This document shows, piece by piece, positions 3,035-26,010 of a stretch of 64,000 nucleotides of DNA (position 1 is the stretch's first letter; each line of letters starts with the position of its first letter). The stretch spans positions 23,436 through 87,435 of the forward strand of contig MESW01000009.1 in the NCBI GenBank assembly GCA_001771135.1, written 5' to 3'. The notes beneath the pieces were generated by a model, which was not told the DNA's origin, ran no database searches, and was given only the letters and a program-made list of their open reading frames with translations. The stretch is from a candidate division CPR3 bacterium GWF2_35_18 (GTDB taxonomy: Bacteria > Patescibacteriota > CPR3 > GWF2-35-18). A program made the position numbers and the translations under genes.

Positions 3035-3532
3035 TTAATTTTTCTCAAGGGTAAATTCTACCATATGATTTCCATGATCATAAATGGCTTTATAGGAAAT
3101 CACGTTTTTCTTGTCTCCAAATATATGATCCAAAATTTCCGAACTAAATTCGGCTAGCAGATTTGGAAGTTTTTTAATTTCGTCTACTGTGAGCCATCTT
3201 AACTCTCCGTCAGGAGAATCAATAACTTCGCCATTCTTAAAATCTGCAACTATCATGTGGAAAAATACTTCTGTACCGATATCCTGCAACCAACCCACTC
3301 CCGTAGCTCTAATTTTCAAATTTTTAATTTTCAGTCCGGTTTCTTCCATCACTTCTCGATGCGCGGCTTCAAAAAGACCCTCTCCTTGTTCTCTTTTCCC
3401 ACCTGGAGCCATCCAGACATTCGGCATAATTTTTTTATCAGAATTACGATGAAGCATCAGATATTTATCATCTTTTTTCACAAAACATTCGAATGTCGCG
3501 TGAATTTTACGATCGGACATATTTCCCTTCAA
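3035..3532 (-). CDS. NUDIX hydrolase
   Basis: Nudix box GGKREQGEGLFEAAHREVMEETGL (GX5EX7REUXEEXGU). Confidence 0.8.
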   Translation of the reverse strand: MKGNMSDRKIHATFECFVKKDDKYLMLHRNSDKKIMPNVWMAPGGKREQGEGLFEAAHREVMEETGLKIKNLKIRATGVGWLQDIGTEVFFHMIVADFKNGEVIDSPDGELRWLTVDEIKKLPNLLAEFSSEILDHIFGDKKNVISYKAIYDHGNHMVEFTLEKN

Positions 3533-8100: not shown

Positions 8101-10231
8101 TTCCAATACCCACATTCCCATCTTTATCTAAAACCATTTTCGTAGACACCGCAGCAGTACCGCTCGCTGTCCCAAATTCTAATCTTCCATAAGGATGTAC
8201 GGCATCAAAATCACTCTGTGCTATAACTCTTGCATATCCAGCCACATTCGAACCTGTTAATGATGTATCGTTAGAATAAAAATCTAATTCTCCTATCATT
8301 TGACCAATTCCGACGCCAGTATCAGTACGTTGAAGAGTCAAAATTGGAGATGAGCTACCTACATGCAGAATTGAAACAGCATTTTCAATACCAATACCAA
8401 AATTTCCACCACTTTCTATAATTGCTTTCTGTGCACTTCCAATAGTTGTCCCAGTACCAAAAACTAGATTACCATTTGAAGCATAATAACTTAAATAATA
8501 ATTTTGAGCTTCTCCATCAAAAATTATTCCAGTATCCTCTGCCCCATTGTCACCCAAAGTCAGGAATGGAGTCGTTCCTCCTATTTGAAGCTCTGTAGAA
8601 GGATTTGTTGTTCCGATCCCCACATTACCAGCAAAATATGAATTTGATGTTGCTGCAGAATAAATTGCATAACGATTCGTTCCAATATCAATAGAAGAAT
8701 GTAAATATATACCATACGAATTATCTACTGTTCCCCCATTTGAATAACCGTTAAGCAGTACTCCATACGCATTATTTATCGTTCCGCTAGAGTTTCCAAT
8801 CGATCCACGTAATAACGCTGCTTCTGCAATTGTTCCTCCACCAGAATTATTCATTTGCGCCCTATAATTATATGCTGAAGCTACATAACCAGATCCATAA
8901 TTGCTAAACATAGAGCTATTACCATATCCAACCGTTGCAATATTTCCATAATTAAACACCCCTGATGATAATCCATACATCCAATTTACGGTTCCATCAT
9001 TGGTATTTATTGATCTACTTGATATTCCAGTCATTCCATGTTGCGTATCTGTACCTGTAAATTCATTCACAAGTTGCAAACCTGTAACATAAGGAAAGCC
9101 AACCGTATCTCCCTCTGTTACGTTAGTATGTAAATAACTGGAATAACTTGATATATTACCATTTGTTATTCTCTCTAAATGAAACAATGATGTAGGGTTC
9201 GTCGTTCCAATCCCCACATTGTAACTTGTATCATCAGGATAAAGATTTGATCCCGAAAGTGTCCAAGGTCCTCCAGTCGAAGAGACATCTGTCCAGGAAG
9301 CCACTCCAGATCCATCGGTAGTTAAAACATATCCACTAGAAGCTCCTGACGCCATAGTAAGTGCTGTGATATCTACACTCCCTCCAGAAAGAGATCCTGT
9401 AACATTCCCGGTTAAGTTCCCGGAAAAAGAGGTCGCGGTAATACTTCCCCCATTGGTAAGATCATTGGTTCCGAGATTAATATCTCCACTCATCGTTCCT
9501 CCAGAAAGAGGTAGATAGTTGGAAGCAGTAATTGTGTTAGGAATCATATTATCCGTTAAAGAGTTATTAGGAAATTTGATAGTCCCAAATACTGTCAGAT
9601 TTGTGGTAGAGAGTGTTCGAATATTGGTAATATTATGATCGTTAAGTTTCACATTACCATTAATTGTCCCTCCAATTACAGGAAAGTATTTTGAAGCCGT
9701 AATGCTATTGGGAATCATGGCGTCGGTAATAGAGTTATTAGGTAAAGTCACTATTCCTAAAGTAGTCAGGTTGTTCACAGTAAGAGAAGGGTTGCCAGAT
9801 AATCCGGTAGCATTTCCAATCAGAGACCCTGTTACGGTTCCTTCTACATCTCCAGTAAGGTTACCTTCAAACTCTCCCTGAAAAAGATCGGCGATTAAAC
9901 TTCCCCAGACCTCTAGGTCTGTGGTTACAAATACCCTTTCTCTTGATTCCAGGAAGAGGTAATCATCTGTTACAATATGCATGTGCACATCATCATAGAT
10001 CTTTGACCCCCCTTGATTCAGATTGAAAGACATATACTTACCTTGATTGAAGGTCTCTGATCCCAGAGTAACCTCTGTTCCGGAGATATTAAGGTCTCCA
10101 ATAATGGATAGCTCTTCCGTAATTGTATAAGCATTTGTGATAAGTGGATTAATTAATACAAAGAAGGTGAAAAAGAATACCAAACTTATAATTGATAGAA
10201 ATAATAGTTGCTTTTGAGACAGTGTAAACAT
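5126..10231 (-). CDS. Giant (1701 aa) secreted repeat protein with phage tail-fibre-like repeats; putative adhesin
   Basis: N-terminal signal peptide (..LINPLITNA|YT); at least 11 dispersed copies of the motif GNVGIGTT(N/S)Pxx(K)L(H/E/D)V; N-terminal tandem repeats containing PLSGGTMSG and LTGNVTGSLSGG, typical of tail-fibre/beta-helix proteins. Confidence 0.7.
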   Translation of the reverse strand: MFTLSQKQLLFLSIISLVFFFTFFVLINPLITNAYTITEELSIIGDLNISGTEVTLGSETFNQGKYMSFNLNQGGSKIYDDVHMHIVTDDYLFLESRERVFVTTDLEVWGSLIADLFQGEFEGNLTGDVEGTVTGSLIGNATGLSGNPSLTVNNLTTLGIVTLPNNSITDAMIPNSITASKYFPVIGGTINGNVKLNDHNITNIRTLSTTNLTVFGTIKFPNNSLTDNMIPNTITASNYLPLSGGTMSGDINLGTNDLTNGGSITATSFSGNLTGNVTGSLSGGSVDITALTMASGASSGYVLTTDGSGVASWTDVSSTGGPWTLSGSNLYPDDTSYNVGIGTTNPTSLFHLERITNGNISSYSSYLHTNVTEGDTVGFPYVTGLQLVNEFTGTDTQHGMTGISSRSINTNDGTVNWMYGLSSGVFNYGNIATVGYGNSSMFSNYGSGYVASAYNYRAQMNNSGGGTIAEAALLRGSIGNSSGTINNAYGVLLNGYSNGGTVDNSYGIYLHSSIDIGTNRYAIYSAATSNSYFAGNVGIGTTNPSTELQIGGTTPFLTLGDNGAEDTGIIFDGEAQNYYLSYYASNGNLVFGTGTTIGSAQKAIIESGGNFGIGIENAVSILHVGSSSPILTLQRTDTGVGIGQMIGELDFYSNDTSLTGSNVAGYARVIAQSDFDAVHPYGRLEFGTASGTAAVSTKMVLDKDGNVGIGTTSPLSQLYVDQGITGGTPGNDRGISVLRAGTPISVGRLFVDANDRFVIGTNSYSSINIVGKNVGIYSSPPSYRLDVNGETTDSVARFYNTDDLAQILISDNDTTGYWGVKDNSAFFGLNSGLSNNNFTITSSGNVGIGTTNPTAKLHILGTTDTQQLIVTANGTQTANILEWQNSSGTPLGYVNNTGRLFLNLGTDITNQFIGSLAGNTTTTGTGLIGIGHKALNVVTNGESNVAIGSYPLSAVTSGDDNIGIGYRPLYTLQTGSNNIALGSSALYQNISGGSNVAIGVGAGYSNLGSGSVFIGTSAGSAETGSDKLYIENSNSVSPLIWGDFANDLVSFNGDVGIGTTSPSGLQVNQNVLTTAQNISNFRGGIVSNNPYLILEETVVGSQFYIYKSGAAQAFARNATGDDIYISAAGYIGIGSNNPGSLLSVDGNVAIGSNYDVLTAPADSLIVQGNVGIGATAPSYPLTVISSVNTLASFTGSSETSKLALTGSRYAGADKTQIDFGWGTTVTSRIESNLMGPAETNMVFYTTQSSAITKRMILDYTGKLGVGNINPSQLFDVNNNFVVTSTGAVGIGTTSPNHKLDVVGNVGVSAGGYLNFGSTDGESGYGIRDNAGTIEYKNSAEEWTALDGGSSYTAGDDLDLNVAEFSLEDDVDVSTLRASSASGLQIFDDGGNLGLFIEDGGYVGLGTSSPSQPLHIVAAGYDPIVFLDAPASVSPSDANSPALAQSIPASNQTDWSNPQNVYSSNNVYTSSTMPTGYTTEYLKITDFGFTIPADATINGVYVEFERYASGSGVTDQSVMLVVDDVYSGNDLQTDLEWGITDPNDYTGYGGSSNLWGVVGLTATQVNNSTFGVAIRARDDGGGNRTAYIDHVRITIYYTPSTGTNWVMGGDITDRSFKISMSSGFGTNDYFMISANGNVGIGTTNPETKLEVNGGIKPISVTADPCGSGYPEGTIFYNDTGNYMCYCDGTNDVQLHSPATACF

Positions 10232-16043: not shown

Positions 16044-16562
16044 CTACTTTACGACATCAATTCTTACTTTCAATACTCCACGCGAAAGAGGAGATAGTTC
16101 TGCAAAAGCTGCTTTTGATAAATCCAAAGATACTCCACGTGAATAAAAAGCTCCACGATCATTTACTTTTACCTCTATCGAATTACCATTTTCAATATTG
16201 GTAACTTTTAAGATTGTTCCAAAAGCATACTCTGGAGATGCTGCAGTTGTATAAGCATTCATATCAAAGACTTCTCCACTACTTGTTCTGCGACCATGTA
16301 AAGCATCACCATAATAGGTAACCACACCTATGCCTTTATCTATATACGTCTTTTTTTTAGCCCCAATTTTTACCTCTTCATTAAGGCTAACTTGTTTCTT
16401 GGTGCCGATTAAAATCTTATCCCTATTTTCAATTTTTGTTTCTAAACGTACTACCGCTCTAGCATGTTTTGGAAAAACGACCTTATCTAAAGGGTAAGTT
16501 GTCGAAACAAGATTAAAAACAAAAAAACTGCTAAAAAGCGCAGTCCTTTTAAACACATCCAT
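16044..16562 (-). CDS. rlpA: RlpA-like double-psi beta-barrel lipoprotein (septal ring lytic transglycosylase family)
   Basis: DPBB motif YYGDALHGRRTSSGEVFDMNAYTAASPEYAFGTILKVTNIENGNSIEVKVNDRGAF; N-terminal signal/anchor. Confidence 0.8.
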   Translation of the reverse strand: MDVFKRTALFSSFFVFNLVSTTYPLDKVVFPKHARAVVRLETKIENRDKILIGTKKQVSLNEEVKIGAKKKTYIDKGIGVVTYYGDALHGRRTSSGEVFDMNAYTTAASPEYAFGTILKVTNIENGNSIEVKVNDRGAFYSRGVSLDLSKAAFAELSPLSRGVLKVRIDVVK

Positions 16563-16628
16563 CTAATAATATTCTGTGGGGCAGAATACAGACTTCAATA
16601 ATTAATCTTTACTGACTTCAGCCAGCTG

Positions 16629-16714
16629 CTAATCTTTAAATCCTAAACAATAATTAAATATAGAAATAATTAATTACAATAAAGTTGGGGGATTGTTTAG
16701 GATTTAAAGATTAG
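16629..16714. repeat. Perfect 22-bp inverted repeat pair (CTAATCTTTAAATCCTAAACAA / TTGTTTAGGATTTAAAGATTAG) with a 42-nt AT-rich spacer in a divergent promoter region
   Basis: Arms at 16629-16650 and 16693-16714 are exact reverse complements. Confidence 0.8.
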
Positions 16715-16850
16715 AATTCAAAAAATTTGATAGTACGGGTTGGAAGGATAACAAAAAGATAAAAATATGTCAAATTTAAGCATTTTTGGTGATAACGATA
16801 TCTTTTTCTGCTACAATTGAAACCTAATATAAAATTACTAATTTTTACCT

Positions 16851-17651
16851 ATGTCCTTGAAATTAAATTGGATTGAAAAAAATAGATCTGCCGAAATCGT
16901 CATCGTCTTTGTGATTTTCATTTCTATAACCGCTGTACTTTTTATTTACTTGAATCCTCAAGAAATTATCAAACAGGTTCGTGACGCCAAAAGACTGGAC
17001 GACATGAACAAAATAAGAAGCGCTTTGGACCATTACAAAGCTGAACACAACTGGACCTATCCAAATAATATATTCCTACTGACAGACTATATCTCTCCTA
17101 TACCCACCGATCCTTTAACTCACAAATATTATGGTTATGTTGTAAACAGTTTGAACACCCTATACGAACTGAACTGCAATTTGGAAAGTATCAAAAAATT
17201 ACCTCTAGAAAAAACCGACAACGGAGACAACGATAATCTTTATGAAATTGGAACAGACCTCACTCTGATGAAACAAGGACTCTATAACAATCTTGGAGTC
17301 AATCCTCCTCCAAATGTTTTCGAACTAATTTCTCCAAAAGAAACAGACACAATTAGTATTAAAGAAACCGATAAAGGCTGTTTATTCAATACCACCCTGT
17401 CTTGGCAAGAAGCGATAGATCCAGGAGATACAAATAGCTATTTCTATTACATTGATAATAACCCTGATTTTAGCAGCCCCGAAATTGTCGGAAAGACTTC
17501 AAATACCACAATCGCTTTGACTGAATATTTCAAAAACGTTAATTGTGCGGAAGTGGAAGACAAAATGTATCTAATTCTGGTAGCTCAAGACAGTGGAGGA
17601 AATTTAACAGACACAAATCCGATAATCATCAAAACTACACTTTCTCAATGA
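16851..17651 (+). CDS. Type IV pilin / pseudopilin-like secreted protein with non-canonical leader
   Basis: N-terminal hydrophobic helix AEIVIVFVIFISITAVLFIYL followed by the pilin-like segment QVRDAKRLDDMNKIRSALDHYKAEHNWTYP; lacks the canonical G|FTLIE cleavage motif. Confidence 0.5.
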   Translation: MSLKLNWIEKNRSAEIVIVFVIFISITAVLFIYLNPQEIIKQVRDAKRLDDMNKIRSALDHYKAEHNWTYPNNIFLLTDYISPIPTDPLTHKYYGYVVNSLNTLYELNCNLESIKKLPLEKTDNGDNDNLYEIGTDLTLMKQGLYNNLGVNPPPNVFELISPKETDTISIKETDKGCLFNTTLSWQEAIDPGDTNSYFYYIDNNPDFSSPEIVGKTSNTTIALTEYFKNVNCAEVEDKMYLILVAQDSGGNLTDTNPIIIKTTLSQ

Positions 17652-18201
17652 TCCTTTGGAGGTTCGGAATTCTAAACTCTTTTTTAAAATTATATAAACG
17701 AGTCAAAGGACCTTTTCCAAATTTTTGATACTGTTGCTCTCTTTTTTCAAAAGTTACGAACCCTTTATCTTTACTGTGAAATTTATCTGCGTAACAAAGG
17801 ATTTTTTCCTCAAGGGTCTCGGGAATAAAATCTAAATGAGGTAAAGGATAATTATGATCTTCAATTTCTTTTTTAGAAATTCCTAAGCCAATATGACGTT
17901 CTACCATTCTAATAATAGCTTCAGAAAATCCTTCGGCTCGTAGGATCATCGCGCCTAGAAAAGCATGTTGAATATATGGCTTAACAACACGTGGACCGTA
18001 AACCTTTTCACATTCAAAAACTCCAATATCATGAAGTAATATTCCTTTTTCCGCAATATCCCAGTTTAGAGACAGCTTGTTTTCAGACACAATCTGTTTG
18101 GCAATTTGTAAAGTAATTGTTGTATGAAGAAAAACATCTTCTGCTCCTTTTTGAGTCGGAGAATATTTTTGAAACAGCTTAAAAAATTCCTTCATCACCA
18201 A
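17635..18201 (-). CDS. HD-domain phosphohydrolase
   Basis: HD motif ILLHDIGVFE with upstream His (FLHTTITLQ) and downstream RHIGLG, CYADKFHSKD. Confidence 0.7.
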   Translation of the reverse strand: MVMKEFFKLFQKYSPTQKGAEDVFLHTTITLQIAKQIVSENKLSLNWDIAEKGILLHDIGVFECEKVYGPRVVKPYIQHAFLGAMILRAEGFSEAIIRMVERHIGLGISKKEIEDHNYPLPHLDFIPETLEEKILCYADKFHSKDKGFVTFEKREQQYQKFGKGPLTRLYNFKKEFRIPNLQRIIEKV

Positions 18202-18961
18202 AAATTCCTTTCATTAAAGATATCGAAATATAACCTTTATTCAAAGCTCCGGTATCCAGTTTTTCATCTAGCTCTCGTTCTATTTTAGAAGCATAAACTT
18301 CTTTATTATAAATAAAGGTGTGCGTTTTATGATCAATTATGACTGGATAATGCCAGTATTTGGTGCTATTACCACTCACTTTTGTAAACTTTACCTGAGT
18401 CGTTGCTTCATGGGGAAAATTTACATTTATTAATTTCGCTTCGTATAAATTCTTGGCAATACAATCATCAATAACTTTAGAGGCCATTTCTCCTGGATAT
18501 TTTAGAAATTCTTGAAAACCATCTTCCAAACTGTGATTTCGAAGCCAATCATTACTATTATTTCTTTTATAGCTCAAACAGATAGCCTTCTCTGATAACT
18601 GAACACTAAGACCCCGGATTGCCGCCGCAACTGTTCCCGAAGAGATATTGGCATAAGCAATATTTTCCCCCCAATTAATTCCCGAGATAATAAGATCAAA
18701 CTTATTCTTGAAATAGCCTTGAGCAAATTCCATCGTGTCTGCGGGAGTTCCGTCTACCCAAAATGCCTTTACCCCTTCAACGACTTCCTCTCCCCAAGAA
18801 TGAGAGGCAAGAAAAGTTAATTTTCCTCCTACTCCAGATTGTTGGGTTTTGGTAGCGGCAATAATCAAGTTGTATTTATCTTTAAGTAAACGAGCTAAAA
18901 CTCTCGTACCCAGAGAGTTATACCCATCATCGCCGGTAAGCAAAATATTCTTAACTTCCAT
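18179..18961 (-). CDS. surE: 5'/3'-nucleotidase SurE
   Basis: N-terminal ILLTGDDGYNSLG; SurE core ISGINWGENIAYANISSGTVAAAIRG; 23-nt overlap with the downstream HD gene. Confidence 0.8.
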   Translation of the reverse strand: MEVKNILLTGDDGYNSLGTRVLARLLKDKYNLIIAATKTQQSGVGGKLTFLASHSWGEEVVEGVKAFWVDGTPADTMEFAQGYFKNKFDLIISGINWGENIAYANISSGTVAAAIRGLSVQLSEKAICLSYKRNNSNDWLRNHSLEDGFQEFLKYPGEMASKVIDDCIAKNLYEAKLINVNFPHEATTQVKFTKVSGNSTKYWHYPVIIDHKTHTFIYNKEVYASKIERELDEKLDTGALNKGYISISLMKGIFGDEGIF

Positions 18962-18964
18962 AGT

Positions 18965-19405
18965 TTATCTTTCTAAAACCTTTATATCTGTAACGGTTTT
19001 AATTTTGCCTAAATATATTGGTAAAACTTTTTGATGTCCCACAAAAAAAGGTTCTGGCAATTCATCTTTAGAAAACCAATTCCAACCTTCACAACAATCT
19101 GGTTCAGCATTTGCAATTTCACCTTTCCAACTTTTTATAATGTAAACAAAACGGACATAATGCTCCTCCTGATGATTCGGAGTATCGTTAACGACTGCAA
19201 ACAAATCGATCTCATTTGCTTTAACACCAGTTTCTTCGAACAGCTCCCGTTTTGCACAGTCTAGAGTAGATTCTCCAACTTCAAGGTGTCCTCCGGGAAA
19301 AGCCCATTGCCCAGCCCCAAAAATATTCTTACGCTTTCCCAGTAGTACTTTTCCTCCTTTTTCCAGGATCATTTCACAAGAAACTTTGACTATTTTTTCT
19401 TTCAT
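18965..19405 (-). CDS. NUDIX hydrolase
   Basis: Nudix box GGHLEVGESTLDCAKRELFEETGV; 4-nt ATGA overlap with the upstream gene. Confidence 0.8.
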   Translation of the reverse strand: MKEKIVKVSCEMILEKGGKVLLGKRKNIFGAGQWAFPGGHLEVGESTLDCAKRELFEETGVKANEIDLFAVVNDTPNHQEEHYVRFVYIIKSWKGEIANAEPDCCEGWNWFSKDELPEPFFVGHQKVLPIYLGKIKTVTDIKVLER

Positions 19406-19902
19406 TTTTCTCCTAGGTAATGACCAATATATGGTAATGAAAACTTCCGTTTCAGATATTTTTTGTAGAGATTAATTGCATTTGCATGATCAAAACCAAT
19501 TTGGGAATTTTCCGGTAGATTATTAAAATCAAACCAAAGGACTTCCGAAATCTCTCGATCATGATCCCCAGTTTTTTCTTCTACATCTACCACATAAAAA
19601 AAGCTGATATTTTGATTATCTTCGACGTTTGTTCTTTTTGGATCATCATTGATTTGAAGTAAAAACTTAATTTTTCCAAGATAACCTGTTTCTTCTTTTA
19701 ATTCTCGTAATACCGCCTCACTGACAACTTCATCTCGATCAATATAACCACCCGGTAACGCGTATTTTCCTGGTTCAAAAAAAGCAGTATTTGATCGTTT
19801 TACCATCAAAATTTTATTGTCTTTAATTACAATAGCATCACAGGTTACATGACGCAATTTGGCTGGATTTCCATTGGGAAATTTACAAGTAATCATATTC
19901 AA
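19402..19902 (-). CDS. NUDIX hydrolase
   Basis: Nudix box GGYIDRDEVVSEAVLRELKEETGY. Confidence 0.8.
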   Translation of the reverse strand: MNMITCKFPNGNPAKLRHVTCDAIVIKDNKILMVKRSNTAFFEPGKYALPGGYIDRDEVVSEAVLRELKEETGYLGKIKFLLQINDDPKRTNVEDNQNISFFYVVDVEEKTGDHDREISEVLWFDFNNLPENSQIGFDHANAINLYKKYLKRKFSLPYIGHYLGEK

Positions 19903-21161
19903 ACTCTTAAATCTTTAATAACGTTAACTAAAACTTTTATTCCTTTATCCAAAACTTCTTTCTCAATTGTGAGTGGTGGCATAAGCTGAATCACACTTTC
20001 ATGATCACAGACCAAGTGCAAACCTTTTTTCCAAGCATGCAAAACAATCTTTTCGGTTAACTCCGGATATTTTTGCTTAGTTTTTTTATCTTTCACAAAA
20101 TCGAGACCCAAAATCATTCCCATTCCCCGAATATCCCCAACATTTGGATGATCTTGTAAATGTTTTTTCAACTCACCCATCATGTAGTGACCTGTTTTCT
20201 GTACTCTTTCCCAAATTTTTTCCTTCTCATGGATTTTCAAAGTTTCGAGAGCCGCGGCGCAAGAAATTGGTAACCAACCAAAAGTAGATTGTAAGTTAGC
20301 GGGATCAGCTACTTCCGCGATTTTTTCCTTGGTCACCATTGCTCCAATTGGAGCGACTCCGTTACTCATTCCTTTAGCAAAAGTTACGATATCGGGAACG
20401 ATATTTTCGTGCTTCATACCAAACAATTTTCCCGTCCGGCTGAAACCAGTTCCGACTTCATCGAGGATAAGAAGTGTTCCATATTTTTCCGTCAATCTCC
20501 GAACAACGGTTAAAAATCCAGTAGGAGCCACATAGGCTGAACCCCAACCGGAAATTATCCCGGATTCCGCGAAAACCGCCGCCACATCTTCATTTTCTAA
20601 AACTGCTTCTAATCTTTTTTCAAAATCGTGAAGAACTTCAGTTTCGTTCAAATCGGTTCTATAAATATTGGGATATTCCAAATGGATGTAATCTGAATTG
20701 TCTGAAGATATGCTTGTTAACCACTCTTTCCTATAACCTACCTCTAACATGGATAAATTGTTTCCATGATAAGTTTCATAGAATCCTAAGATTTTTTTTC
20801 GCCCAGTGTAAGCTCGGGCCAGTTTCATGGCATGTTCATTTGCTTCAACCCCACCAGTTACTCTACTACAAGAATCTAACTCTTTTGGTAAAACGTGATG
20901 TAAGGCTGAAGCATATTTTTCTTGGAGATCATCACAAAACCACATTGAGGCGTAAGTATTTTTCATCACCTGACTAGAAACTGCTTCCGCAATTTCGGGA
21001 CGATTCCAACCCAAATTTGTCACATTCCAACCTGAAGTAAAATCAATATATTGCTTCCCTTTATCGTCCCAGAGATAACTACCACAAGCGTCTTTTATTT
21101 TAAATCGCCATGCTGAAAATTTTGTGTAAATAATATGTCGATGTACCATAATTACCTCCAT
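19899..21161 (-). CDS. Class III PLP-dependent aminotransferase
   Basis: LILDEVGTGFSRTGKLFG motif and TFAKGMSNG (PLP lysine); 420 aa. Confidence 0.85.
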   Translation of the reverse strand: MEVIMVHRHIIYTKFSAWRFKIKDACGSYLWDDKGKQYIDFTSGWNVTNLGWNRPEIAEAVSSQVMKNTYASMWFCDDLQEKYASALHHVLPKELDSCSRVTGGVEANEHAMKLARAYTGRKKILGFYETYHGNNLSMLEVGYRKEWLTSISSDNSDYIHLEYPNIYRTDLNETEVLHDFEKRLEAVLENEDVAAVFAESGIISGWGSAYVAPTGFLTVVRRLTEKYGTLLILDEVGTGFSRTGKLFGMKHENIVPDIVTFAKGMSNGVAPIGAMVTKEKIAEVADPANLQSTFGWLPISCAAALETLKIHEKEKIWERVQKTGHYMMGELKKHLQDHPNVGDIRGMGMILGLDFVKDKKTKQKYPELTEKIVLHAWKKGLHLVCDHESVIQLMPPLTIEKEVLDKGIKVLVNVIKDLRV

Positions 21162-21815
21162 TTAATTGTAGATAGATTGAGTTTCAAACGGTAAAAAGTA
21201 TACCTTAAATAGTTGCCAGAGTCTAACAAAACGACAAACAGAAAAGCTACTTCCAGTTCTATCACCAAAAATGGAAAAAAACACTGTTTGCAATCCACCG
21301 AAAGGATATTCCGAAAAAGCAGCTAAATTGGCTTGAAATTCTTGATTTCCTTCTTCCATATTTCCTTCCTGCATCATATGTTCGAATTCATGACGTTTAA
21401 CAAAAAGCTTTGCAGAAACAGGTAAATCCTCTCGGACATATCCAAAATCTCCACAAGAAATTCCATTTAAACCTGGCATCTCCTCTTTCGAAACTTCAAT
21501 CATAAAATAATCTGAGGCTTGACGATACTCTTCTTTGGAAATTTTGAGACCTTCTTTTCTCTTTTGTCTCAACGATTCTAACCAATTTCGATCCTCCTCA
21601 TTAAAAAAAGAATCAAAGGTATAGCCTCCCTCCCAATCTCCGTTTTCTAAAAGAGTAAACGTATAACAATCAGGATGTTTGGGAAAAGCAATTTTAGGAC
21701 ACTGATAATATCGACTAAGAAACTCGAAACTAATTATGCTTATTATAATAAAAACAAGAGAAAAAATAACAAAATATTTTAAAAATTTTAGGAACTTTTG
21801 TTTTTTATTGAGCAT
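21162..21815 (-). CDS. Membrane-anchored protein with HExxH motif (putative zinc metallopeptidase)
   Basis: N-terminal TM; RHEFEHMMQE (HExxH); directly abuts the aminotransferase gene (start 21161 / stop 21162). Confidence 0.45.
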   Translation of the reverse strand: MLNKKQKFLKFLKYFVIFSLVFIIISIISFEFLSRYYQCPKIAFPKHPDCYTFTLLENGDWEGGYTFDSFFNEEDRNWLESLRQKRKEGLKISKEEYRQASDYFMIEVSKEEMPGLNGISCGDFGYVREDLPVSAKLFVKRHEFEHMMQEGNMEEGNQEFQANLAAFSEYPFGGLQTVFFSIFGDRTGSSFSVCRFVRLWQLFKVYFLPFETQSIYN

Positions 21816-21844
21816 TTTCTTTTACATTAAATAAAAATATCAAC

Positions 21845-22396
21845 TTAGTATCTAAAACAATTCATTAGATGATCATTCACCATCCCTGCCGCCTGCATAA
21901 AAGCGTAACAAATAGTCGGACCAACAAAACGAAAACCTCTCTTTTTCAGATCTTTGCTCATCGTTAACGCCTCTTTCGATTCTACCGGAATCTCTTTCAA
22001 AGTCTTCCAAGAGTTCTTAATAGTTTTCCCATTAACAAATTGCCAAATGTAAGAATCAAAACTCCCAAACTCTTTTTGTACTTGTAAAAAAGCCTGTGCA
22101 TTAGAAATAGTCGCGCTGATCTTTAAACGATTGCGAATAATTCCAGCATCACATAACAAACTTTCAATTTTTTCTTGCTTATACATAGCAATTTTTTTGG
22201 CGTTAAAGTTGTCAAAAGCACGCCGAAAATTTTCTCTCTTATTAATAATAATTTCCCAAGAAAGTCCGGCCTGAAAAGCATCAAGGATCAAAAACTCAAA
22301 AAGATTGTGATCATCATGAAGAGGAACTCCCCATTCTTTATCGTGATAAGCAATCATTAAAGGATTTTTTGAAACCCAAGGACAACGATTTTTCAT
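21845..22396 (-). CDS. tag: DNA-3-methyladenine glycosylase I
   Basis: RCPWVSKNPLMIAYHDKEWGVPLHDDHNLFEFLILDAFQAGLSWEIIINKRENFR matches the Tag family. Confidence 0.85.
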   Translation of the reverse strand: MKNRCPWVSKNPLMIAYHDKEWGVPLHDDHNLFEFLILDAFQAGLSWEIIINKRENFRRAFDNFNAKKIAMYKQEKIESLLCDAGIIRNRLKISATISNAQAFLQVQKEFGSFDSYIWQFVNGKTIKNSWKTLKEIPVESKEALTMSKDLKKRGFRFVGPTICYAFMQAAGMVNDHLMNCFRY

Positions 22397-22797
22397 AACG
22401 TCTTAATTAACTCCTTTAAGCTTTGGTTTGAAACATAATATTTGTCAGTTAAAAATTCTTTTTGAGAAACCCAACGAAATTCTTGAATCGGCTCTTTGGT
22501 AGGATTAATTGAAAAATCTACTTTATAATTTTGAGTTAAACACAAAAAAGTCGTACAAACAACTTGGTTCTGATCGGTTCTGAAAAACCACCAGATACCA
22601 AGAACTTTACCTATTTTAATTTCTAAACCAGTTTCCTCTTTGACTTCACGCTGCAAACACTCATGTGGCGTTTCTCCATATTCGATTTTTCCACCTGGAA
22701 GATCCCAAAACTCTTTATCTCCAACAACTTGTTTAATCACTAAAAATTTATCTTTGTTATGAATAATCGCTTTAACAGCAGGGAAAACTTGAGACAT
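22393..22797 (-). CDS. NUDIX hydrolase
   Basis: Nudix box GGKIEYGETPHECLQREVKEETGLEI; 4-nt overlap with tag. Confidence 0.8.
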   Translation of the reverse strand: MSQVFPAVKAIIHNKDKFLVIKQVVGDKEFWDLPGGKIEYGETPHECLQREVKEETGLEIKIGKVLGIWWFFRTDQNQVVCTTFLCLTQNYKVDFSINPTKEPIQEFRWVSQKEFLTDKYYVSNQSLKELIKTL

Positions 22798-22808
22798 GTT
22801 ATTTTAAA

Positions 22809-23378
22809 TTATTTTATAAAAAACGTCAGAAATTCTTTGATCGATTTATACTGCGTTCTTAACTCTTTTCGGCAAATATCAAGACTCAAAGCATTCCATT
22901 TTTCATCAGCCTTTTGCAAATAGAGCTTAACCATATTTTCGAGTTCCATCTTCCGACCATTAATTATTCCCCCGAGAACTCCTTCAACCGAAACAAAGCG
23001 GTAACAATCAGAGTTACAACAAATTTCAGATTCCAAAGAAAAAAATTTGGGAACTCCATGATGTTCGGAAACACAAGCTAGAATATTTTCTTTTTCCCTT
23101 CGAGATAGCTCTGAAAATGAATCTAAAAAATTCTTAGTTTTTGTAACCCCAGTATTAATATGCTCTTTCAAATTACCTTTACTAAAAACCTCTCCTAATC
23201 CACAATCCATCAAAGTAGTTCCTAAATAGACTATGCTTTCATTAGCCTTTAATTTTTGCGAAAGAATTTGGCCTTTATTATTTGCAAGTTCTAAGTGGAA
23301 TTTTGAAGGCACTTGATATTTTTCAATTTCAGAAAGAGCAAATTGATTTGCTTGTTGCAAAATTGTTTTTGAAATCAT
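22809..23378 (-). CDS. Hypothetical protein, possibly a degenerate HD-domain-like hydrolase; first gene of the operon
   Basis: 189 aa; segments LMDCGLGE and VSEHHGVPKF loosely resemble HD-domain metal-binding motifs; weak. Confidence 0.4.
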   Translation of the reverse strand: MISKTILQQANQFALSEIEKYQVPSKFHLELANNKGQILSQKLKANESIVYLGTTLMDCGLGEVFSKGNLKEHINTGVTKTKNFLDSFSELSRREKENILACVSEHHGVPKFFSLESEICCNSDCYRFVSVEGVLGGIINGRKMELENMVKLYLQKADEKWNALSLDICRKELRTQYKSIKEFLTFFIK

Positions 23379-23431
23379 GTATACAATTATACCTTAATAT
23401 AAAATCATGGTCTAACACTAAGTAAAAACAA

Positions 23432-23468
23432 TTAGAGGTCTTACCCCATTATGGGGTAAGACCTCTAA
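23432..23468 (-). terminator. Strong intrinsic terminator-like hairpin (15-17 bp perfect stem, 3-nt loop) followed by a T-rich tract on the minus strand
   Basis: AGAGGTCTTACCCCA-TTA-TGGGGTAAGACCTCT; minus-strand 3' flank is AATTGTTTTTACTT. Confidence 0.6.
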
Positions 23469-23503
23469 AATGCTGAAACGAAAAATAATTTACCAAAGAA
23501 ATA

Positions 23504-23545
23504 GTGCGGCCTCGTGGAAAGCTGCCTAAATCCACAAGACCGCAC
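23504..23545 (-). terminator. Intrinsic terminator of sod (15-bp stem, 12-nt loop, T-rich tail on minus strand)
   Basis: GTGCGGCCTCGTGGA...TCCACAAGACCGCAC; perfect on the minus-strand RNA (two G-U wobbles) but two C-A mismatches on the plus strand; followed by CTATTTCTTTGG on the minus strand. Confidence 0.6.
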
Positions 23546-23596
23546 CATTTCTAATCCATAAATACTACATTTATGTGGGAAATATTTCGAATACCT

Positions 23597-24208
23597 CTAT
23601 CTAGTAGCATCCAAATAGTTCTGCTCCACTTGCTCCCAATTGACGACATGCCACCAAGATTTAATATAATCAGCTCGTCGATTCTGATAATGTAGATAAT
23701 ACGCATGTTCCCACAGATCTAGGGCCAAAATCGGTTTTAGACCTTCTAATAAAGGAGAATCCTGATTTGCAGTTGAATGTATTTTTAAGTGTTTATTTTC
23801 ATCAAGAGAAAGCCAAGTCCAACCACTTCCAAATCTGTTTAAAGCTTCGCTGGTAAACTTATCGTGAAAATTTATAAAACCACCCAATTCCTTATCAATA
23901 ATAGGCGAAAGAATCCCATTTGATTCTCCACCACCTTTTGGTTTCATGACTTTCCAAAAAAATGAATGATTATAATGTCCTCCCCCGTTATTCCGGACCG
24001 CGGTTTGAATCTCTTTAGGAATAGATTCCAAAGAGATCAAAAGCTCTTCTACTGTTTTTTTTGAAAGTTCATCATGATCTTTCAAAGCTAAATTTAACTT
24101 ATCAACATAAGTCTGGTGATGTTTTGAATAATGAATCTCCATTGTCCGCGCATCAATATAAGGCTCTAAATCCGCATAAGAATAAAGAAGTTTAGGCAAA
24201 GTAAACAT
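23597..24208 (-). CDS. sodA: Fe/Mn superoxide dismutase
   Basis: Start taken at MFTLPKLLYSYADLEPYIDARTMEIHYSKHHQTYV with an AGGAGA RBS 9 nt upstream; C-terminal DLWEHAYYL; longer ORF-track start 24286 is unlikely. Confidence 0.9.
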   Translation of the reverse strand: MFTLPKLLYSYADLEPYIDARTMEIHYSKHHQTYVDKLNLALKDHDELSKKTVEELLISLESIPKEIQTAVRNNGGGHYNHSFFWKVMKPKGGGESNGILSPIIDKELGGFINFHDKFTSEALNRFGSGWTWLSLDENKHLKIHSTANQDSPLLEGLKPILALDLWEHAYYLHYQNRRADYIKSWWHVVNWEQVEQNYLDATR

Positions 24209-24309
24209 AATATTTTCTCCTGACATACTAACACTAATTAGGTAAGAGTATAATATATTAAACATTTTGTCAAGTTGCTTTTTCAAAGAATCTTACTTAC
24301 AATAAAATC

Positions 24310-25119
24310 ATGATAGTAACTAATCCTCAATTAAGAACAAAGGAAGAACTAGAATTGTTACCAAACGAAGTTTTAACTTCTCCTCTTCCAGAATTAAGAC
24401 CAGTTTCTGGTTTTGAATTACCTCTCCCAGTTACAGGACCAAATCTAAAAAAAACTGTTTTAATCAAAGACGCCGTAAACACATATAAAGAATCTCCGAT
24501 TCAAGAAAAGTTACACAACCTTCAAAGAGAGTTACAAACTGCTCAGCTTTCGCTAAAAAGCCCTTATCGTAATACCTCTATTCAATCTATTGAGGAAACA
24601 ATTAGGCGAATCACTGAAAGAGATATTCCGGAAGCACAAAGAGAGCTAGCCAAACTTACTTTTCCGGTTATTGCTGATGTTAATATTGATCATGACGGTC
24701 GAATAAATATTAATGGCACACCACAAGAAGGTCGACATGTTATCGTGGCTTATGATCCAGAGAAAAAACAAACATACGCCAGATATTTACCAGGACGTCC
24801 CGTATCCACAGCAGTAACCGGTAGCATGGGAGAAAATATCCAGATCCCCATTCAAGAAGATGATGGAAAAATGAGAATGTTATTACCAATTGCTTATCTA
24901 GAATCTACGGAAACAGCACCAAAAAGTGGAATCTGGAATCTGCAGATATCTCAAACAGCTTTTAATAACAAAGAGCCATTTCCCATTGATGTGGAAACTA
25001 TTGATCAAAGCCCTCAAAAAGTAGTAACAAGTAGTGATCAAGAATCATTAATGGCTCAGTTCAAAGACACGCCTTATAAAAAGAAAGAAAAACCGAAAAA
25101 AGGTTGGTCTACATCTTGA
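24310..25119 (+). CDS. Hypothetical soluble protein
   Basis: 269 aa, no TM or signal, no motif recognised. Confidence 0.45.
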   Translation: MIVTNPQLRTKEELELLPNEVLTSPLPELRPVSGFELPLPVTGPNLKKTVLIKDAVNTYKESPIQEKLHNLQRELQTAQLSLKSPYRNTSIQSIEETIRRITERDIPEAQRELAKLTFPVIADVNIDHDGRININGTPQEGRHVIVAYDPEKKQTYARYLPGRPVSTAVTGSMGENIQIPIQEDDGKMRMLLPIAYLESTETAPKSGIWNLQISQTAFNNKEPFPIDVETIDQSPQKVVTSSDQESLMAQFKDTPYKKKEKPKKGWSTS

Positions 25120-25125
25120 GAATAA

Positions 25126-26010
25126 CTAGCTTTTCATCCGTTTTTGCTCCTCGAGATACATGTCATTTTCTCCCCAAGATTTTACAACTTCCTCAGTAAC
25201 CGGCTTTGCAATATCCCAAGTAATTAAAAATATTGACTGCAAACTTTGAGCAAGCAATTTGCTTTTGATTTTCAAACCCCAAATTTCATTATCTTTGGCA
25301 CTAATTATTCGTAACCAATCACCTTGTATTGCAATTCTTTGGTTTAAGATAAACTCCGGTTTATCGATATATCGCATTTCCCATGCTTTAATATACTCTG
25401 GATTATGACTATATTGATACGTCAATACATGCTTTGTCCAATCGTTAAGAGGCATCACTTCTTTAATTGGATGTTTCGCTTTTTCACGAAGAGCAATCTC
25501 TTCCTGTACAAGTTTATTCATGTCTTCTCGACCAAAAATATCCATCGGCATCTGCAAATCAAAGGCATATACTGGCATTTCTAGCTCAGAAATCATCTTA
25601 TCCATATAGACATTTTTGGCGCCTTCAATACCAGGAAAAAATTGGAAATCAGCATTCACTTTATTTTGATGAAAATCAGCTTTAAGGTTTGGTAAAAAAT
25701 TCAGAATATCCAATTCCAGAGAAGTTAATTCTTTTCTCTTCCCCTGAAGTATTGTCCGTAAAATAGAAGGATTTTTAGCTCGAATTTTGGTTTGTTGCTT
25801 TTGAATTCCATCAGATTGTTCTAGCTCAATTAAACCTTTCAAGGATAACTCCATCACCACATCGTAAACTGTAGTTCTGGGAATTCCGGTTGCTTTTGAT
25901 AATTGGAAAGGAGATGTTTCATTGTGTTTCAAAGATTCTAAATAAACTTTCGTCTCATTTTCGCTTAAACCAAATCTCTTTAATGTTTCCAAAATCATAT
26001 TATTTTCCAT
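25126..26010 (-). CDS. TrmB-family transcriptional regulator
   Basis: N-terminal winged HTH LKRFGLSENETKVYLESLKHNETSPFQLSKATGIPRTTVYDVVMELSLKGLIE. Confidence 0.65.
   Translation of the reverse strand: MENNMILETLKRFGLSENETKVYLESLKHNETSPFQLSKATGIPRTTVYDVVMELSLKGLIELEQSDGIQKQQTKIRAKNPSILRTILQGKRKELTSLELDILNFLPNLKADFHQNKVNADFQFFPGIEGAKNVYMDKMISELEMPVYAFDLQMPMDIFGREDMNKLVQEEIALREKAKHPIKEVMPLNDWTKHVLTYQYSHNPEYIKAWEMRYIDKPEFILNQRIAIQGDWLRIISAKDNEIWGLKIKSKLLAQSLQSIFLITWDIAKPVTEEVVKSWGENDMYLEEQKRMKS

What the first reader, a model, noticed from the sequence alone, without database searches (positions are those of the whole stretch)
17635..23378. Nine-gene translationally coupled operon packed with nucleotide phosphohydrolases (3 NUDIX + SurE + HD + HD-like), Tag glycosylase, class III aminotransferase and an HExxH membrane protein
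Seen in sequence: consecutive minus-strand genes joined by 4-nt ATGA overlaps (22393-96, 19899-902, 19402-05), a 23-nt overlap (18179-201) and directly abutting genes (21161/21162), bracketed by tandem terminators upstream. Established: NUDIX, SurE and HD enzymes hydrolyse (d)NTP/NDP-X, NMP and dNTP substrates, and Tag excises 3-methyladenine. Inference: this is a dedicated nucleotide-pool sanitation, salvage or modified-nucleotide processing module, and the aminotransferase plus metallopeptidase-like gene suggest an extra tailoring or regulatory step. Three NUDIX paralogs in one operon, four in the window, is unusual. An alternative reading is an uncharacterised nucleotide-based defence or anti-defence cassette.
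Basis: partly seen in the sequence, partly recalled or inferred. Interest (0 to 1): 0.7.

Follow-up and report, generated by a model that had tools for sequence, protein, structure and literature searches.

The report
Mixed housekeeping operon in CPR3 bacterium
Nine tightly packed genes in a tiny-genome (CPR3/Patescibacteria) bacterium really do encode mostly small nucleotide-cleaving enzymes, but relatives shuffle, drop and interrupt them with unrelated genes, so this looks like an ordinary run of independent housekeeping genes, not a dedicated pathway or defence system.

Summary
Nine co-directional minus-strand genes (17635-23378) encode an HD-fold protein, NUDIX, Tag, a membrane-anchored HExxH zincin-like protein, a class III aminotransferase, two more NUDIX, SurE and an HD/HDIG protein. 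They lie between tandem terminators plus a promoter-like site and a convergent gene. Spacing is tighter than elsewhere in the window. Small corrections: one cited "ATGA" overlap is TTGA, and two junctions depend on start-codon choice.

The genome is candidate division CPR3 bacterium GWF2_35_18. In four CPR3-like relatives the same chromosomal block (SOD ... DPBB, SpoU) is collinear, but the gene set varies. Only four of the nine genes recur in both relatives that span the block. An iron permease, a malic enzyme, a P-type ATPase or a glycosyltransferase sit between them. Around 63 aminotransferase orthologues, 80 homologues of the last HD gene and two further g1 homologues, none of SurE, Tag, g4 or the aminotransferase recurs nearby. 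NUDIX genes are not enriched next to the aminotransferase. Multi-NUDIX clumps recur in other Patescibacteria. No defence-system signature was found.

Best reading: a lineage-specific, probably co-transcribed assemblage of independently acting house-cleaning and salvage enzymes. Low novelty.

The parts
23497..23550 (-). First hairpin terminator after the upstream Fe/Mn superoxide dismutase gene (23597-24286)
   Evidence: Sequence read. The RNA fold of 23379-23600 shows a roughly 22-bp stem followed by UAUUUCUUU.
23432..23468 (-). Second hairpin terminator (17-bp stem, 8 GC pairs, T-tail)
   Evidence: Terminator scan and RNA fold. Rfam gives no riboswitch here, only a spurious mir-140 hit below threshold.
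23386..23414 (-). Promoter-like site TAGACC-17-TATAAT, 8 nt upstream of the g1 ATG
   Evidence: Best-scoring sigma-70-like match in 16500-25500, 10 of 12 positions. This is a consensus match only and has not been shown to be functional.
22809..23378 (-). g1: 189-aa HD-superfamily-fold protein of a Patescibacteria-restricted family, with a degenerate HD dyad (M57-D58)
   Evidence: No Pfam or NCBIfam hit. 71 homologues were found. Invariant residues are D58, H73, H106, H107, E116, E118 and D124. The AF2 model has pLDDT 97.6. Foldseek top hits are 2pjq and YpgQ 5dqv, E about 2e-4, TM 0.6-0.7.
22393..22797 (-). g2: 134-aa NUDIX hydrolase (MutT/NudJ-like, substrate unassigned)
   Evidence: Pfam NUDIX 73.9 bits. 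Complete Nudix box GKIEYGETPHECLQREVKEETG. Below every NCBIfam equivalog cut-off. Orthologues are present in L002 (54%) and L006 (58%).
21845..22396 (-). g3: 183-aa DNA-3-methyladenine glycosylase I (Tag); ATGA overlap with g2
   Evidence: Pfam Adenine_glyco 282.8 bits. TIGR00624 scores 249.5 against a cut-off of 232.5. Present in L006 (72%) and absent from L002.
21162..21815 (-). g4: 217-aa membrane-anchored HExxH (zincin-like) protein, restricted to CPR3
19899..21161 (-). g5: class III (omega-type) PLP aminotransferase; the likelier start is ATG 21149
   Evidence: Pfam Aminotran_3 297.5 bits. No NCBIfam equivalog is reached: the best is PRK05769 at 292 against a cut-off of 552. The closest PDB entries are generic class III transaminases or racemases and GABA or AcOrn aminotransferases. 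Orthologues at 45-60% identity are widespread in Patescibacteria and Nitrospira.
19402..19902 (-). g6: 164-166-aa NUDIX hydrolase (weakly NadM-Nudix/ADP-ribose pyrophosphatase-like)
   Evidence: Pfam NUDIX 68.6 bits. Nudix box GYIDRDEVVSEAVLRELKEETG. Best NCBIfam hits are the NadM-Nudix C-terminal domains at 50 bits, far below cut-off. Orthologues in L002 (67%) and L006 (47%).
18965..19405 (-). g7: 146-aa NUDIX hydrolase of the NUDX1/NUDT15/MutT-like type; ATGA overlap with g6
   Evidence: Pfam NUDIX 90.9 bits. Closest PDB entries are Arabidopsis NUDX1 (E 2e-24) and NUDT15 (5e-17). No orthologue in L002 or L006.
18179..18961 (-). g8: 260-aa SurE-family 5'/3'-nucleotidase
   Evidence: Pfam SurE 120.5 bits. 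TIGR00087 scores 128.9, just under its cut-off of 135.1. The GDDG and GINWGEN motifs are visible in the translation. Present in L002 (73%). Replaced by an unrelated 209-aa ORF in L006.
17635..18201 (-). g9: 186-188-aa HD/HDIG phosphohydrolase (TIGR00295-like) with the full H..HD..H..H..D motif; its 3' end overlaps the convergent + strand gene 16851-17651 by 17 nt
   Evidence: Pfam HD 38.5 bits. HDIG TIGR00277 scores 40 against a cut-off of 27.6. Invariant H24, H55, D56, H77, H101 and D137. 790 cluster representatives at E<=1e-3. Orthologues in L002 (78%) and L006 (59%).

Best explanation
This is a compact, probably single-promoter array of nine genes in candidate division CPR3 bacterium GWF2_35_18, a reduced-genome Patescibacterium.

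It is a lineage-specific assemblage of independently acting housekeeping enzymes.
- Three NUDIX pyrophosphohydrolases cleave NTP, dNTP or NDP-X compounds to monophosphates.
- A SurE nucleotidase converts NMP to nucleoside plus phosphate.
- One canonical HD phosphohydrolase of dinuclear type and one divergent one are present.
- A Tag glycosylase removes 3-methyladenine from DNA.
- Two genes have no demonstrable nucleotide role: an omega-type aminotransferase and a small membrane-anchored zincin-like protein.

Inferred: they are co-transcribed from the promoter-like site at 23386-23414, with translational coupling at the two ATGA junctions. This would give coordinated low-level expression of 'house-cleaning' and salvage functions in an organism that must live on scavenged nucleotides.

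Shown:
- the domain identities;
- the tight spacing;
- the variable composition of the block in relatives;
- the absence of conserved linkage outside the lineage.

Not shown: the transcript, any substrate, and any metabolic hand-off between the enzymes.
For: Organism: P0121 and P0129 are 100% identical to CPR3 GWF2_35_18 proteins.

Operon-like anatomy:
- terminators plus a promoter-like site upstream;
- no credible internal terminator;
- gaps significantly shorter than elsewhere in the window.

Co-directional arrays are the norm in this window: 84% of genes are on the minus strand, 93% of the sequence is coding, and same-strand runs reach 18 genes.

Variable content in CPR3-like relatives:
- L002 (AT 84% identical): SOD | g2 g4 g5 g6 g8 g9 | convergent gene, with 78-122-nt gaps and no g1, g3 or g7.
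- L006 (AT 61%): SOD | g2 FTR1 g3 malic-enzyme g5 g6 209-aa-ORF g9 | convergent gene, DUF202, DPBB, SpoU.
- L007 (AT 62%): g1, P-type ATPase, g4, g5, GIY-YIG.
- L155 (SOD 79%, g1 64%): SOD, g1, PMT_2 glycosyltransferase.
- The flanking SOD, convergent ORF, DPBB and SpoU genes are equally collinear, so the retained order is background synteny.

Beyond CPR3:
- 63 species-representative genomes with an AT orthologue (952 kb) hold no SurE, Tag or g4, one weak HD hit and one weak g1-like hit.
- NUDIX within 2 kb of AT: 5 observed against 4.2 expected, P=0.41.
- 80 metagenome loci with g9 homologues (526 kb) hold no SurE, Tag, AT, g1 or g4.
- g1 homologues in L009 and L010 sit among unrelated genes.
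- AT orthologues at 54-59% identity sit with Aldedh+GNAT, Nuc_deoxyrib_tr or GTPases.

NUDIX clumps recur elsewhere: L055 has 4 in 5 kb, L016 has 3 and L044 has 2.

Context: 93% of Patescibacteria genomes lack de novo nucleotide synthesis (bioRxiv 10.64898/2026.06.21.733656).
Against: - The array is tighter than its surroundings, and seven of nine products touch nucleotides or DNA. That is more thematic coherence than a random draw of genes would give.
- Three NUDIX genes in 5.7 kb compares with a background of about 1.1 per 64 kb.
- g2, g5, g6 and g9 persist in the same order in all three genomes where the whole block is visible.
- g4-g5 adjacency recurs in the window, L002 and L007.
- Only four CPR3-like relatives, all short metagenome contigs, could be examined. 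The GTDB scan returned no CPR3 genome closer than 57% AT identity.
- The tblastn and seed-HMM detection of HD and NUDIX neighbours is less sensitive than Pfam.
Confidence: 0.7

Rival explanations
1. Dedicated nucleotide-pool sanitation and salvage module. The NUDIX enzymes strip pyrophosphate from scavenged or damaged (d)NTPs or NDP-X compounds. SurE and the HD enzymes dephosphorylate the products. The operon exists because these steps form one pathway in a nucleotide-auxotrophic cell.
For: - Seven of the nine genes belong to nucleotide or DNA-base hydrolase families.
- Gene spacing is significantly tight and there are two ATGA couplings.
- The g8-g9 overlap is kept in L002.
- The g2, g5, g6, g9 order is kept in L002 and L006.
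- Patescibacteria depend on imported nucleotides.
Against: - Composition differs even between the closest relatives: g1, g3 and g7 are missing in L002, and SurE and g4 are missing in L006.
- Unrelated genes (FTR1, malic enzyme, P-type ATPase, PMT_2) interrupt the array.
- No linkage of any pair is seen outside CPR3 in about 1.5 Mb of homologous neighbourhoods.
- NUDIX plus SurE acting in series would destroy NTPs to nucleosides. That is counter-productive for a cell reported to conserve phosphorylated nucleotides.
- The aminotransferase and zincin have no place in such a pathway.
Confidence: 0.18
2. Biosynthesis or tailoring of a modified nucleotide, cofactor or phosphonate-like metabolite. 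The class III aminotransferase (or a PbfA-like lyase) and an HD enzyme (PhnZ-like oxygenase or phosphatase) would act with NUDIX enzymes on one small molecule.
For: - The aminotransferase scores 272 bits against the PbfA model, and g9 scores weakly against Phn-HD (E 0.003).
- g9 carries the dinuclear H..HD..H..H..D motif shared by the HD oxygenases (PMC8177086).
- AT-NUDIX adjacency is seen in the window, L002 and L006.
Against: - All these scores are far below the family cut-offs, and equally good generic hits exist: AcOrn and GABA aminotransferases for g5, and TIGR00295 at 74 bits for g9.
- AT-NUDIX proximity is at chance level across 63 genomes.
- No PhnY-like dioxygenase or other pathway gene is present.
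- AT orthologues elsewhere pair with aldehyde dehydrogenase and GNAT, which is typical of omega-amino-acid catabolism.
Confidence: 0.06
3. An uncharacterised nucleotide-based anti-phage defence or anti-defence cassette, for example nucleotide depletion or signal-nucleotide degradation.
For: - All three NUDIX proteins match the PADLOC candidate PDC-S07 (E 3e-20 to 5e-11).
- The content varies between relatives, as it does in defence islands.
Against: - PDC-S07 is simply a NUDIX-domain model matched by all three paralogues, and the other six proteins hit nothing.
- The CapP similarity is generic zincin fold, with M32, M48 and Spartan scoring nearly as well.
- No integrase, transposase, toxin, nuclease-NTPase or sensor gene is present.
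- G+C of the nine genes (0.32-0.38) matches the window.
- The flanks are housekeeping genes (SOD, SpoU methylase, DPBB) that are syntenic in relatives.
Confidence: 0.03

Closest known systems
'House-cleaning' NUDIX/MutT-type pyrophosphohydrolases (E. coli MutT, NudJ; plant NUDX1; human NUDT15)
   Same: g2, g6 and g7 pass the Pfam NUDIX threshold and carry a complete Nudix box. g7 aligns with NUDX1 and NUDT15 at E 2e-24 and 5e-17.
   Different: None reaches an NCBIfam equivalog cut-off. The three are only 26-30% identical to each other. The substrates cannot be read from the sequence.
SurE 5'/3'-nucleotidase. In E. coli it is encoded in the mixed-function surE-pcm-nlpD-rpoS region (from my own knowledge).
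   Same: g8 matches Pfam SurE at 120.5 bits and covers the full length of TIGR00087. As in E. coli, it sits in an operon with functionally unrelated neighbours.
   Different: The score of 128.9 is just under the TIGR00087 cut-off of 135.1. The gene is absent from the syntenic position in L006.
YpgQ-type HD-domain (d)NTP pyrophosphohydrolases (B. subtilis YpgQ, PDB 5dqv; function as summarised in PMC8177086)
   Same: The g1 model superposes on YpgQ and related structural-genomics HD hydrolases, TM 0.6-0.7, E about 2e-4 to 7e-4.
   Different: There is no Pfam HD hit. The His of the HD dyad is Met throughout the family, and the first His is not invariant. Sequence identity is 12-16%. Metal binding and activity are unknown.
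TIGR00295 / HDIG family HD phosphohydrolases, dinuclear H..HD..H..H..D class (for example YqeK and PgpH as functional analogues)
   Same: g9 passes the HD and HDIG thresholds and has all six motif residues invariant.
   Different: It scores 74 bits against a TIGR00295 cut-off of 172. The closest PDB sequence hit is only YhaM at E 0.005. No member of its close family is characterised.
Minimal zincin metalloproteases (IrrE/ImmA M78, CapP, minigluzincins, SprT/Spartan)
   Different: It has no Pfam or Foldseek-significant match. It carries an N-terminal membrane anchor and four invariant Cys. It is restricted to a handful of CPR3 genomes.
DNA-3-methyladenine glycosylase I (E. coli Tag)
   Same: g3 exceeds the TIGR00624 cut-off (249.5 against 232.5) and matches Pfam end to end.
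   Different: It is below the E. coli-type equivalog model PRK10353 (220 against 349). Otherwise it is an ordinary member.

Membership tests
NUDIX hydrolase superfamily (PF00293) | Nudix box GX5EX7REUXEEXGU and a score above the Pfam gathering threshold | tested here: met
   g2, g6 and g7 score 73.9, 68.6 and 90.9 bits against a threshold of 21.1. The regex G.{5}E.{7}RE..EE.G is found in all three and in the fourth NUDIX gene at 3035-3532.
MutT / 8-oxo-dGTP diphosphatase equivalog (TIGR00586, NF008044) | Score above the curated equivalog cut-off | tested here: not met
   The best scores are 48.6-53.1 bits against a cut-off of 97.9, and 44-51 against 148.
SurE 5'/3'-nucleotidase (PF01975, TIGR00087) | Pfam domain above threshold; equivalog cut-off of 135.1 | tested here: inconclusive
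   Pfam scores 120.5 against 22.1, which is met. TIGR00087 scores 128.9 against 135.1, which is marginally missed. The DDG and GINxGxN motifs are present in the translation.
DNA-3-methyladenine glycosylase I, Tag (PF03352, TIGR00624) | Full-length match above the curated cut-off | tested here: met
   282.8 bits over profile positions 1-176 of 177. TIGR00624 scores 249.5 against 232.5.
HD-domain phosphohydrolase (PF01966): g9 | The H...HD...D metal-binding motif and a score above the Pfam threshold | tested here: met
   38.5 bits against 22, and HDIG 40 against 27.6. H24, H55-D56, H77, H101 and D137 are invariant in 22 homologues.
HD-domain phosphohydrolase (PF01966): g1 | HD fold | tested here: met
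   AF2 pLDDT 97.6. The top 15 or more Foldseek PDB hits are HD-superfamily hydrolases.
HD-domain phosphohydrolase (PF01966): g1 | Conserved His-Asp dyad and a sequence-profile match | tested here: not met
   No Pfam or NCBIfam hit at E<=0.01. The dyad position is Met-Asp in most sequences of the 38-row alignment (I, A or K in four rows); only the Asp (D58) is invariant.
Class III PLP aminotransferase (PF00202) | Full-length Pfam match; assignment to a specific equivalog | tested here: inconclusive
   Pfam scores 297.5 bits over positions 11-403 of 403, which is met. None of the 69 NCBIfam models reaches its cut-off, so no substrate class can be assigned.
Zincin (HExxH) metalloprotease: g4 | HExxH motif plus a third ligand; zincin fold | tested here: inconclusive
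Conserved functional gene cluster (operon conserved across lineages) | Co-occurrence of the member genes in the neighbourhood of orthologues in other lineages, beyond background synteny | tested here: not met
   Only within-lineage collinearity is seen, and it is interrupted by unrelated genes. There is no linkage in about 1.5 Mb of neighbourhoods elsewhere.
Known or candidate anti-phage defence systems (PADLOC-DB 2.0) | Matches to system-specific protein models in a coherent set | tested here: not met
   Only a generic NUDIX match to the single-gene candidate PDC-S07. The other six proteins have no hit.
Single transcription unit (operon in the strict sense) | One transcript covering all nine genes | not testable with these tools
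   Only indirect evidence is available: a promoter-like site, upstream terminators, short gaps and no credible internal terminator.

The most novel reading that the evidence does not exclude
The core that persists in the CPR3 lineage is NUDIX g2 ... aminotransferase g5 - NUDIX g6 ... dinuclear HD g9. SurE, the zincin g4 and the degenerate HD g1 would be optional accessories. On this reading the core is a lineage-specific pathway that processes one scavenged nucleotide-linked or amino-bearing metabolite. That would make it a previously undescribed salvage route of nucleotide-auxotrophic Patescibacteria, not a set of independent house-cleaning enzymes.
Probability: 0.1. Interest if true: 0.5.

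Novelty: new member of a known kind. Interest (0 to 1): 0.2.

Why it matters
If the main reading is right, the locus matters little. It is an ordinary compact operon of uncharacterised members of well-known enzyme families in a streamlined CPR genome. It also shows that thematic gene clustering in such genomes should be checked against synteny before a pathway is inferred.

Three points have modest value:
- The high and clumped NUDIX load fits the nucleotide-centred economy of Patescibacteria.
- g1 defines a well-conserved, unannotated HD-fold family that lacks the canonical His and occurs across Patescibacteria.
- g4 is a CPR3-restricted membrane zincin that often sits beside the aminotransferase.

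These are reasonable targets for biochemical annotation. None opens a long-standing question.

Tried and rejected
1. A genome-contig scan with g9 as a single protein found no confirmed relatives. It was replaced by the AT alignment scan and a g9 alignment scan of metagenome contigs.
2. A riboswitch or other RNA leader upstream of g1 was ruled out. Rfam at E<=1 gave only spurious snoRNA and miRNA hits, and the structured RNA there is the pair of SOD terminators.
3. The defence hypothesis was tested with PADLOC and gave only generic NUDIX matches.
4. A phosphonate-catabolism reading (PbfA-like AT plus PhnZ-like HD) was considered because of the NCBIfam hits. It was rejected because the scores are generic and far below the cut-offs.
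5. A specific AT-NUDIX association was tested statistically across 63 genomes and rejected (5 observed against 4.2 expected).
6. Recent tandem duplication as the origin of the three NUDIX genes was rejected. Their pairwise identity is only 26-30%.
7. Foreign origin of the variable genes g1, g3 and g7 is not indicated by G+C or GC3.
8. Literature searches for NUDIX in CPR or Patescibacteria found nothing relevant.

Full report
**Observation**

ORF listing shows nine consecutive minus-strand ORFs between 17635 and 23378.
- Pfam confirms three NUDIX domains: g2 22393-22797, g6 19402-19902 and g7 18965-19405.
- It also confirms Adenine_glyco/Tag (g3 21845-22396), Aminotran_3 (g5 19899-21161), SurE (g8 18179-18961) and HD (g9 17635-18201). 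All are well above the gathering thresholds.
- NCBIfam agrees at family level. Only Tag (TIGR00624) and the HDIG domain pass a curated cut-off. None of the NUDIX proteins, SurE (128.9 against 135.1) or the aminotransferase reaches an equivalog model, so no substrate can be assigned from sequence.

The two genes without Pfam hits were examined by homologue collection and structure prediction.
- g1 (22809-23378) belongs to a well-conserved, roughly 190-aa family with 71 hits; every hit that carries a source name is from Patescibacteria.
  - Its AF2 model (pLDDT 97.6) matches HD-superfamily hydrolases, including the (d)NTP pyrophosphohydrolase YpgQ (function from PMC8177086).
  - The family has Met-Asp where the HD dyad should be. 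It keeps D58, H73, H106, H107 and D124 invariant.
- g4 (21162-21815) has only eight homologues in 5.8 billion proteins. One is 100% identical and named as candidate division CPR3 bacterium GWF2_35_18, which identifies the source organism.
  - It has an N-terminal helix, an invariant HExEH motif plus E159, and four invariant cysteines.

**Junctions and boundaries**

- Two junctions are genuine ATGA overlaps (22393-96 and 19402-05).
- The third cited overlap reads TTGA. The likelier ATG at 19896 leaves a 2-nt spacer.
- The 23-nt g8/g9 overlap becomes 17 nt with the ATG at 18195.
- The 'abutting' g4/g5 junction becomes a 12-nt gap with the GGAGG-preceded ATG at 21149. The database representative of g5 is 416 aa.
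- Upstream, two strong hairpins follow the SOD gene, and a TAGACC-17-TATAAT site lies 8 nt before g1.
- Rfam finds no riboswitch.
- Downstream, g9 overlaps a convergent + strand gene by 17 nt.
- Gaps inside the array have a median of -2 nt and are all 30 nt or less. The rest of the window has a median of 47 nt (P=0.002-0.005). Co-transcription is therefore plausible.
- The window as a whole is 93% coding and 84% minus-strand, with same-strand runs of up to 18 genes. Co-directionality alone therefore says little.

**Comparative test within the lineage**

Contigs carrying the closest aminotransferase and g1 homologues give four CPR3-like relatives.

| Locus | Similarity to window | Gene order |
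|---|---|---|
| L002 | AT 84% | SOD, g2, g4, g5, g6, g8, g9, convergent ORF; lacks g1, g3, g7; gaps of 78-122 nt between several genes |
| L006 | AT 61% | SOD, g2, FTR1 iron permease, g3, malic enzyme, g5, g6, unrelated 209-aa ORF, g9, convergent ORF, DUF202, DPBB, SpoU |
| L007 | AT 62% | g1, P-type cation ATPase, g4, g5, GIY-YIG |
| L155 | SOD 79%, g1 64% | SOD, g1, PMT_2 glycosyltransferase |

- The flanking genes SOD, the convergent ORF, DPBB and SpoU are collinear with the window.
- Only g2, g5, g6 and g9 recur wherever the whole block is visible.
- The block is therefore a syntenic chromosome segment in which genes, including ones unrelated to nucleotides, are gained and lost. It is not a fixed module.

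**Comparative test beyond the lineage**

- A GTDB species-representative scan with an aminotransferase alignment returned 63 loci, mostly Patescibacteria, at 31-57% identity and totalling 952 kb.
  - tblastn with the nine proteins found no SurE, Tag or g4, one weak HD hit and one weak g1-like hit, and NUDIX genes in about ten loci.
  - With a seed HMM, the NUDIX density is 1.14 per 64 kb. There is no enrichment within 2 kb of the aminotransferase: 5 observed against 4.2 expected, P=0.41.
- Aminotransferase orthologues at 54-59% identity sit next to aldehyde dehydrogenase plus GNAT, a nucleoside deoxyribosyltransferase-like gene, GTPases or a Trp repressor.
- The g9 family has 790 cluster representatives and carries the complete H..HD..H..H..D motif.
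  - It was scanned in metagenome contigs. The 80 loci (526 kb) contain no SurE, Tag, aminotransferase, g1 or g4, and only scattered non-adjacent NUDIX genes.
- g1 homologues in two other Patescibacteria lie among thioredoxin/DsbD, peptidase and unknown genes.
- NUDIX clumping recurs elsewhere. A Nealsonbacteria locus (L055) has four NUDIX genes in 5 kb, mixed with methyltransferase, NYN and MBL genes. L016 has three NUDIX genes and L044 has two.

**Interpretation**

- The best-supported reading is a lineage-specific, probably co-transcribed assemblage of independently acting house-cleaning and salvage enzymes, plus two unrelated genes.
- The nucleotide theme is real. It fits an organism from a phylum in which 93% of genomes lack de novo nucleotide synthesis (bioRxiv 10.64898/2026.06.21.733656).
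- The comparative evidence does not support a dedicated pathway.
- A serial NUDIX-to-SurE route would degrade the phosphorylated nucleotides that such cells are reported to conserve.
- The defence reading has no specific support. PADLOC gives only a generic NUDIX match, and there are no mobile-element or effector genes, no compositional anomaly and housekeeping syntenic flanks.
- A phosphonate or modified-metabolite reading rests on sub-threshold generic hits.

**Limits**

- Only four short CPR3-like contigs were available.
- The GTDB scan returned no close CPR3 genome.
- Neighbour detection used tblastn and a seed HMM, not full Pfam annotation.
- No expression or biochemical data exist for these genes.
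- A lineage-specific functional core (g2-g5-g6-g9) therefore cannot be excluded. I give it about 10-18%.

**Verdict**

- Novelty is low. These are new members of known enzyme families in an ordinary arrangement.
- Two side notes deserve annotation: the Met-Asp HD-fold family (g1) and the CPR3-restricted membrane zincin (g4).

Noticed in passing
window 22809-23378 (g1); alignment A1: g1 belongs to an unannotated Patescibacteria-wide family of about 190 aa with 71 hits and no Pfam match. It has an HD-superfamily fold, but Met-Asp replaces the HD dyad. D58, H73, H106, H107, E116, E118, D124 and C125 are invariant. Its neighbours differ in every lineage examined.
   Followed up: partly
window 21162-21815 (g4); L002 7565-8224; L007 5525-6172: g4 is a CPR3-restricted membrane-anchored HExEH zincin-like protein with four invariant cysteines and only 8 database homologues. 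It lies immediately upstream of the class III aminotransferase in the window, L002 and L007, with a 4-nt overlap in L007. In L006 a malic enzyme takes that place.
   Followed up: partly
L055 12264-17337; L016 11953-12863 and 18193-18780; L044 262-2631: Other Patescibacteria carry clumps of 2-4 NUDIX genes within a few kb, mixed with unrelated genes: a methyltransferase, NYN, a metallo-beta-lactamase and RsgA in L055. NUDIX clustering therefore appears to be a recurrent feature of the phylum.
   Followed up: partly
window 3035-3532 (-): A fourth NUDIX gene of 165 aa (Pfam 62.3 bits) with a complete Nudix box lies 15 kb from the cluster.
   Followed up: yes
window 17635-17651: The 3' end of g9 overlaps the 3' end of the convergent + strand gene 16851-17651 by 17 nt, and no terminator is predicted between them. 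That gene encodes a 266-aa protein with an N-terminal TM segment and no Pfam family. The same convergent arrangement is kept in L002 and L006.
   Followed up: partly
window 5126-10231 (-) and 37175-46297 (-): There are two giant ORFs of 1701 aa and 3040 aa. The regions they occupy have higher G+C (0.39-0.41) than the window average of about 0.34. They were not examined.
   Followed up: no
P0047, P0059, P0084, P0112; L003 8618-11697: Close homologues of the aminotransferase (53-55% identity) occur in Nitrospira as well as in many Patescibacteria. In L003 the gene sits between an aldehyde dehydrogenase and a GNAT acetyltransferase, which suggests a role in omega-amino-acid or polyamine metabolism.
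   Followed up: no
window 24310-25119 (+): A 269-aa ORF between SOD and the TrmB-family regulator has no Pfam match. The corresponding position in relatives holds different small ORFs.
   Followed up: no
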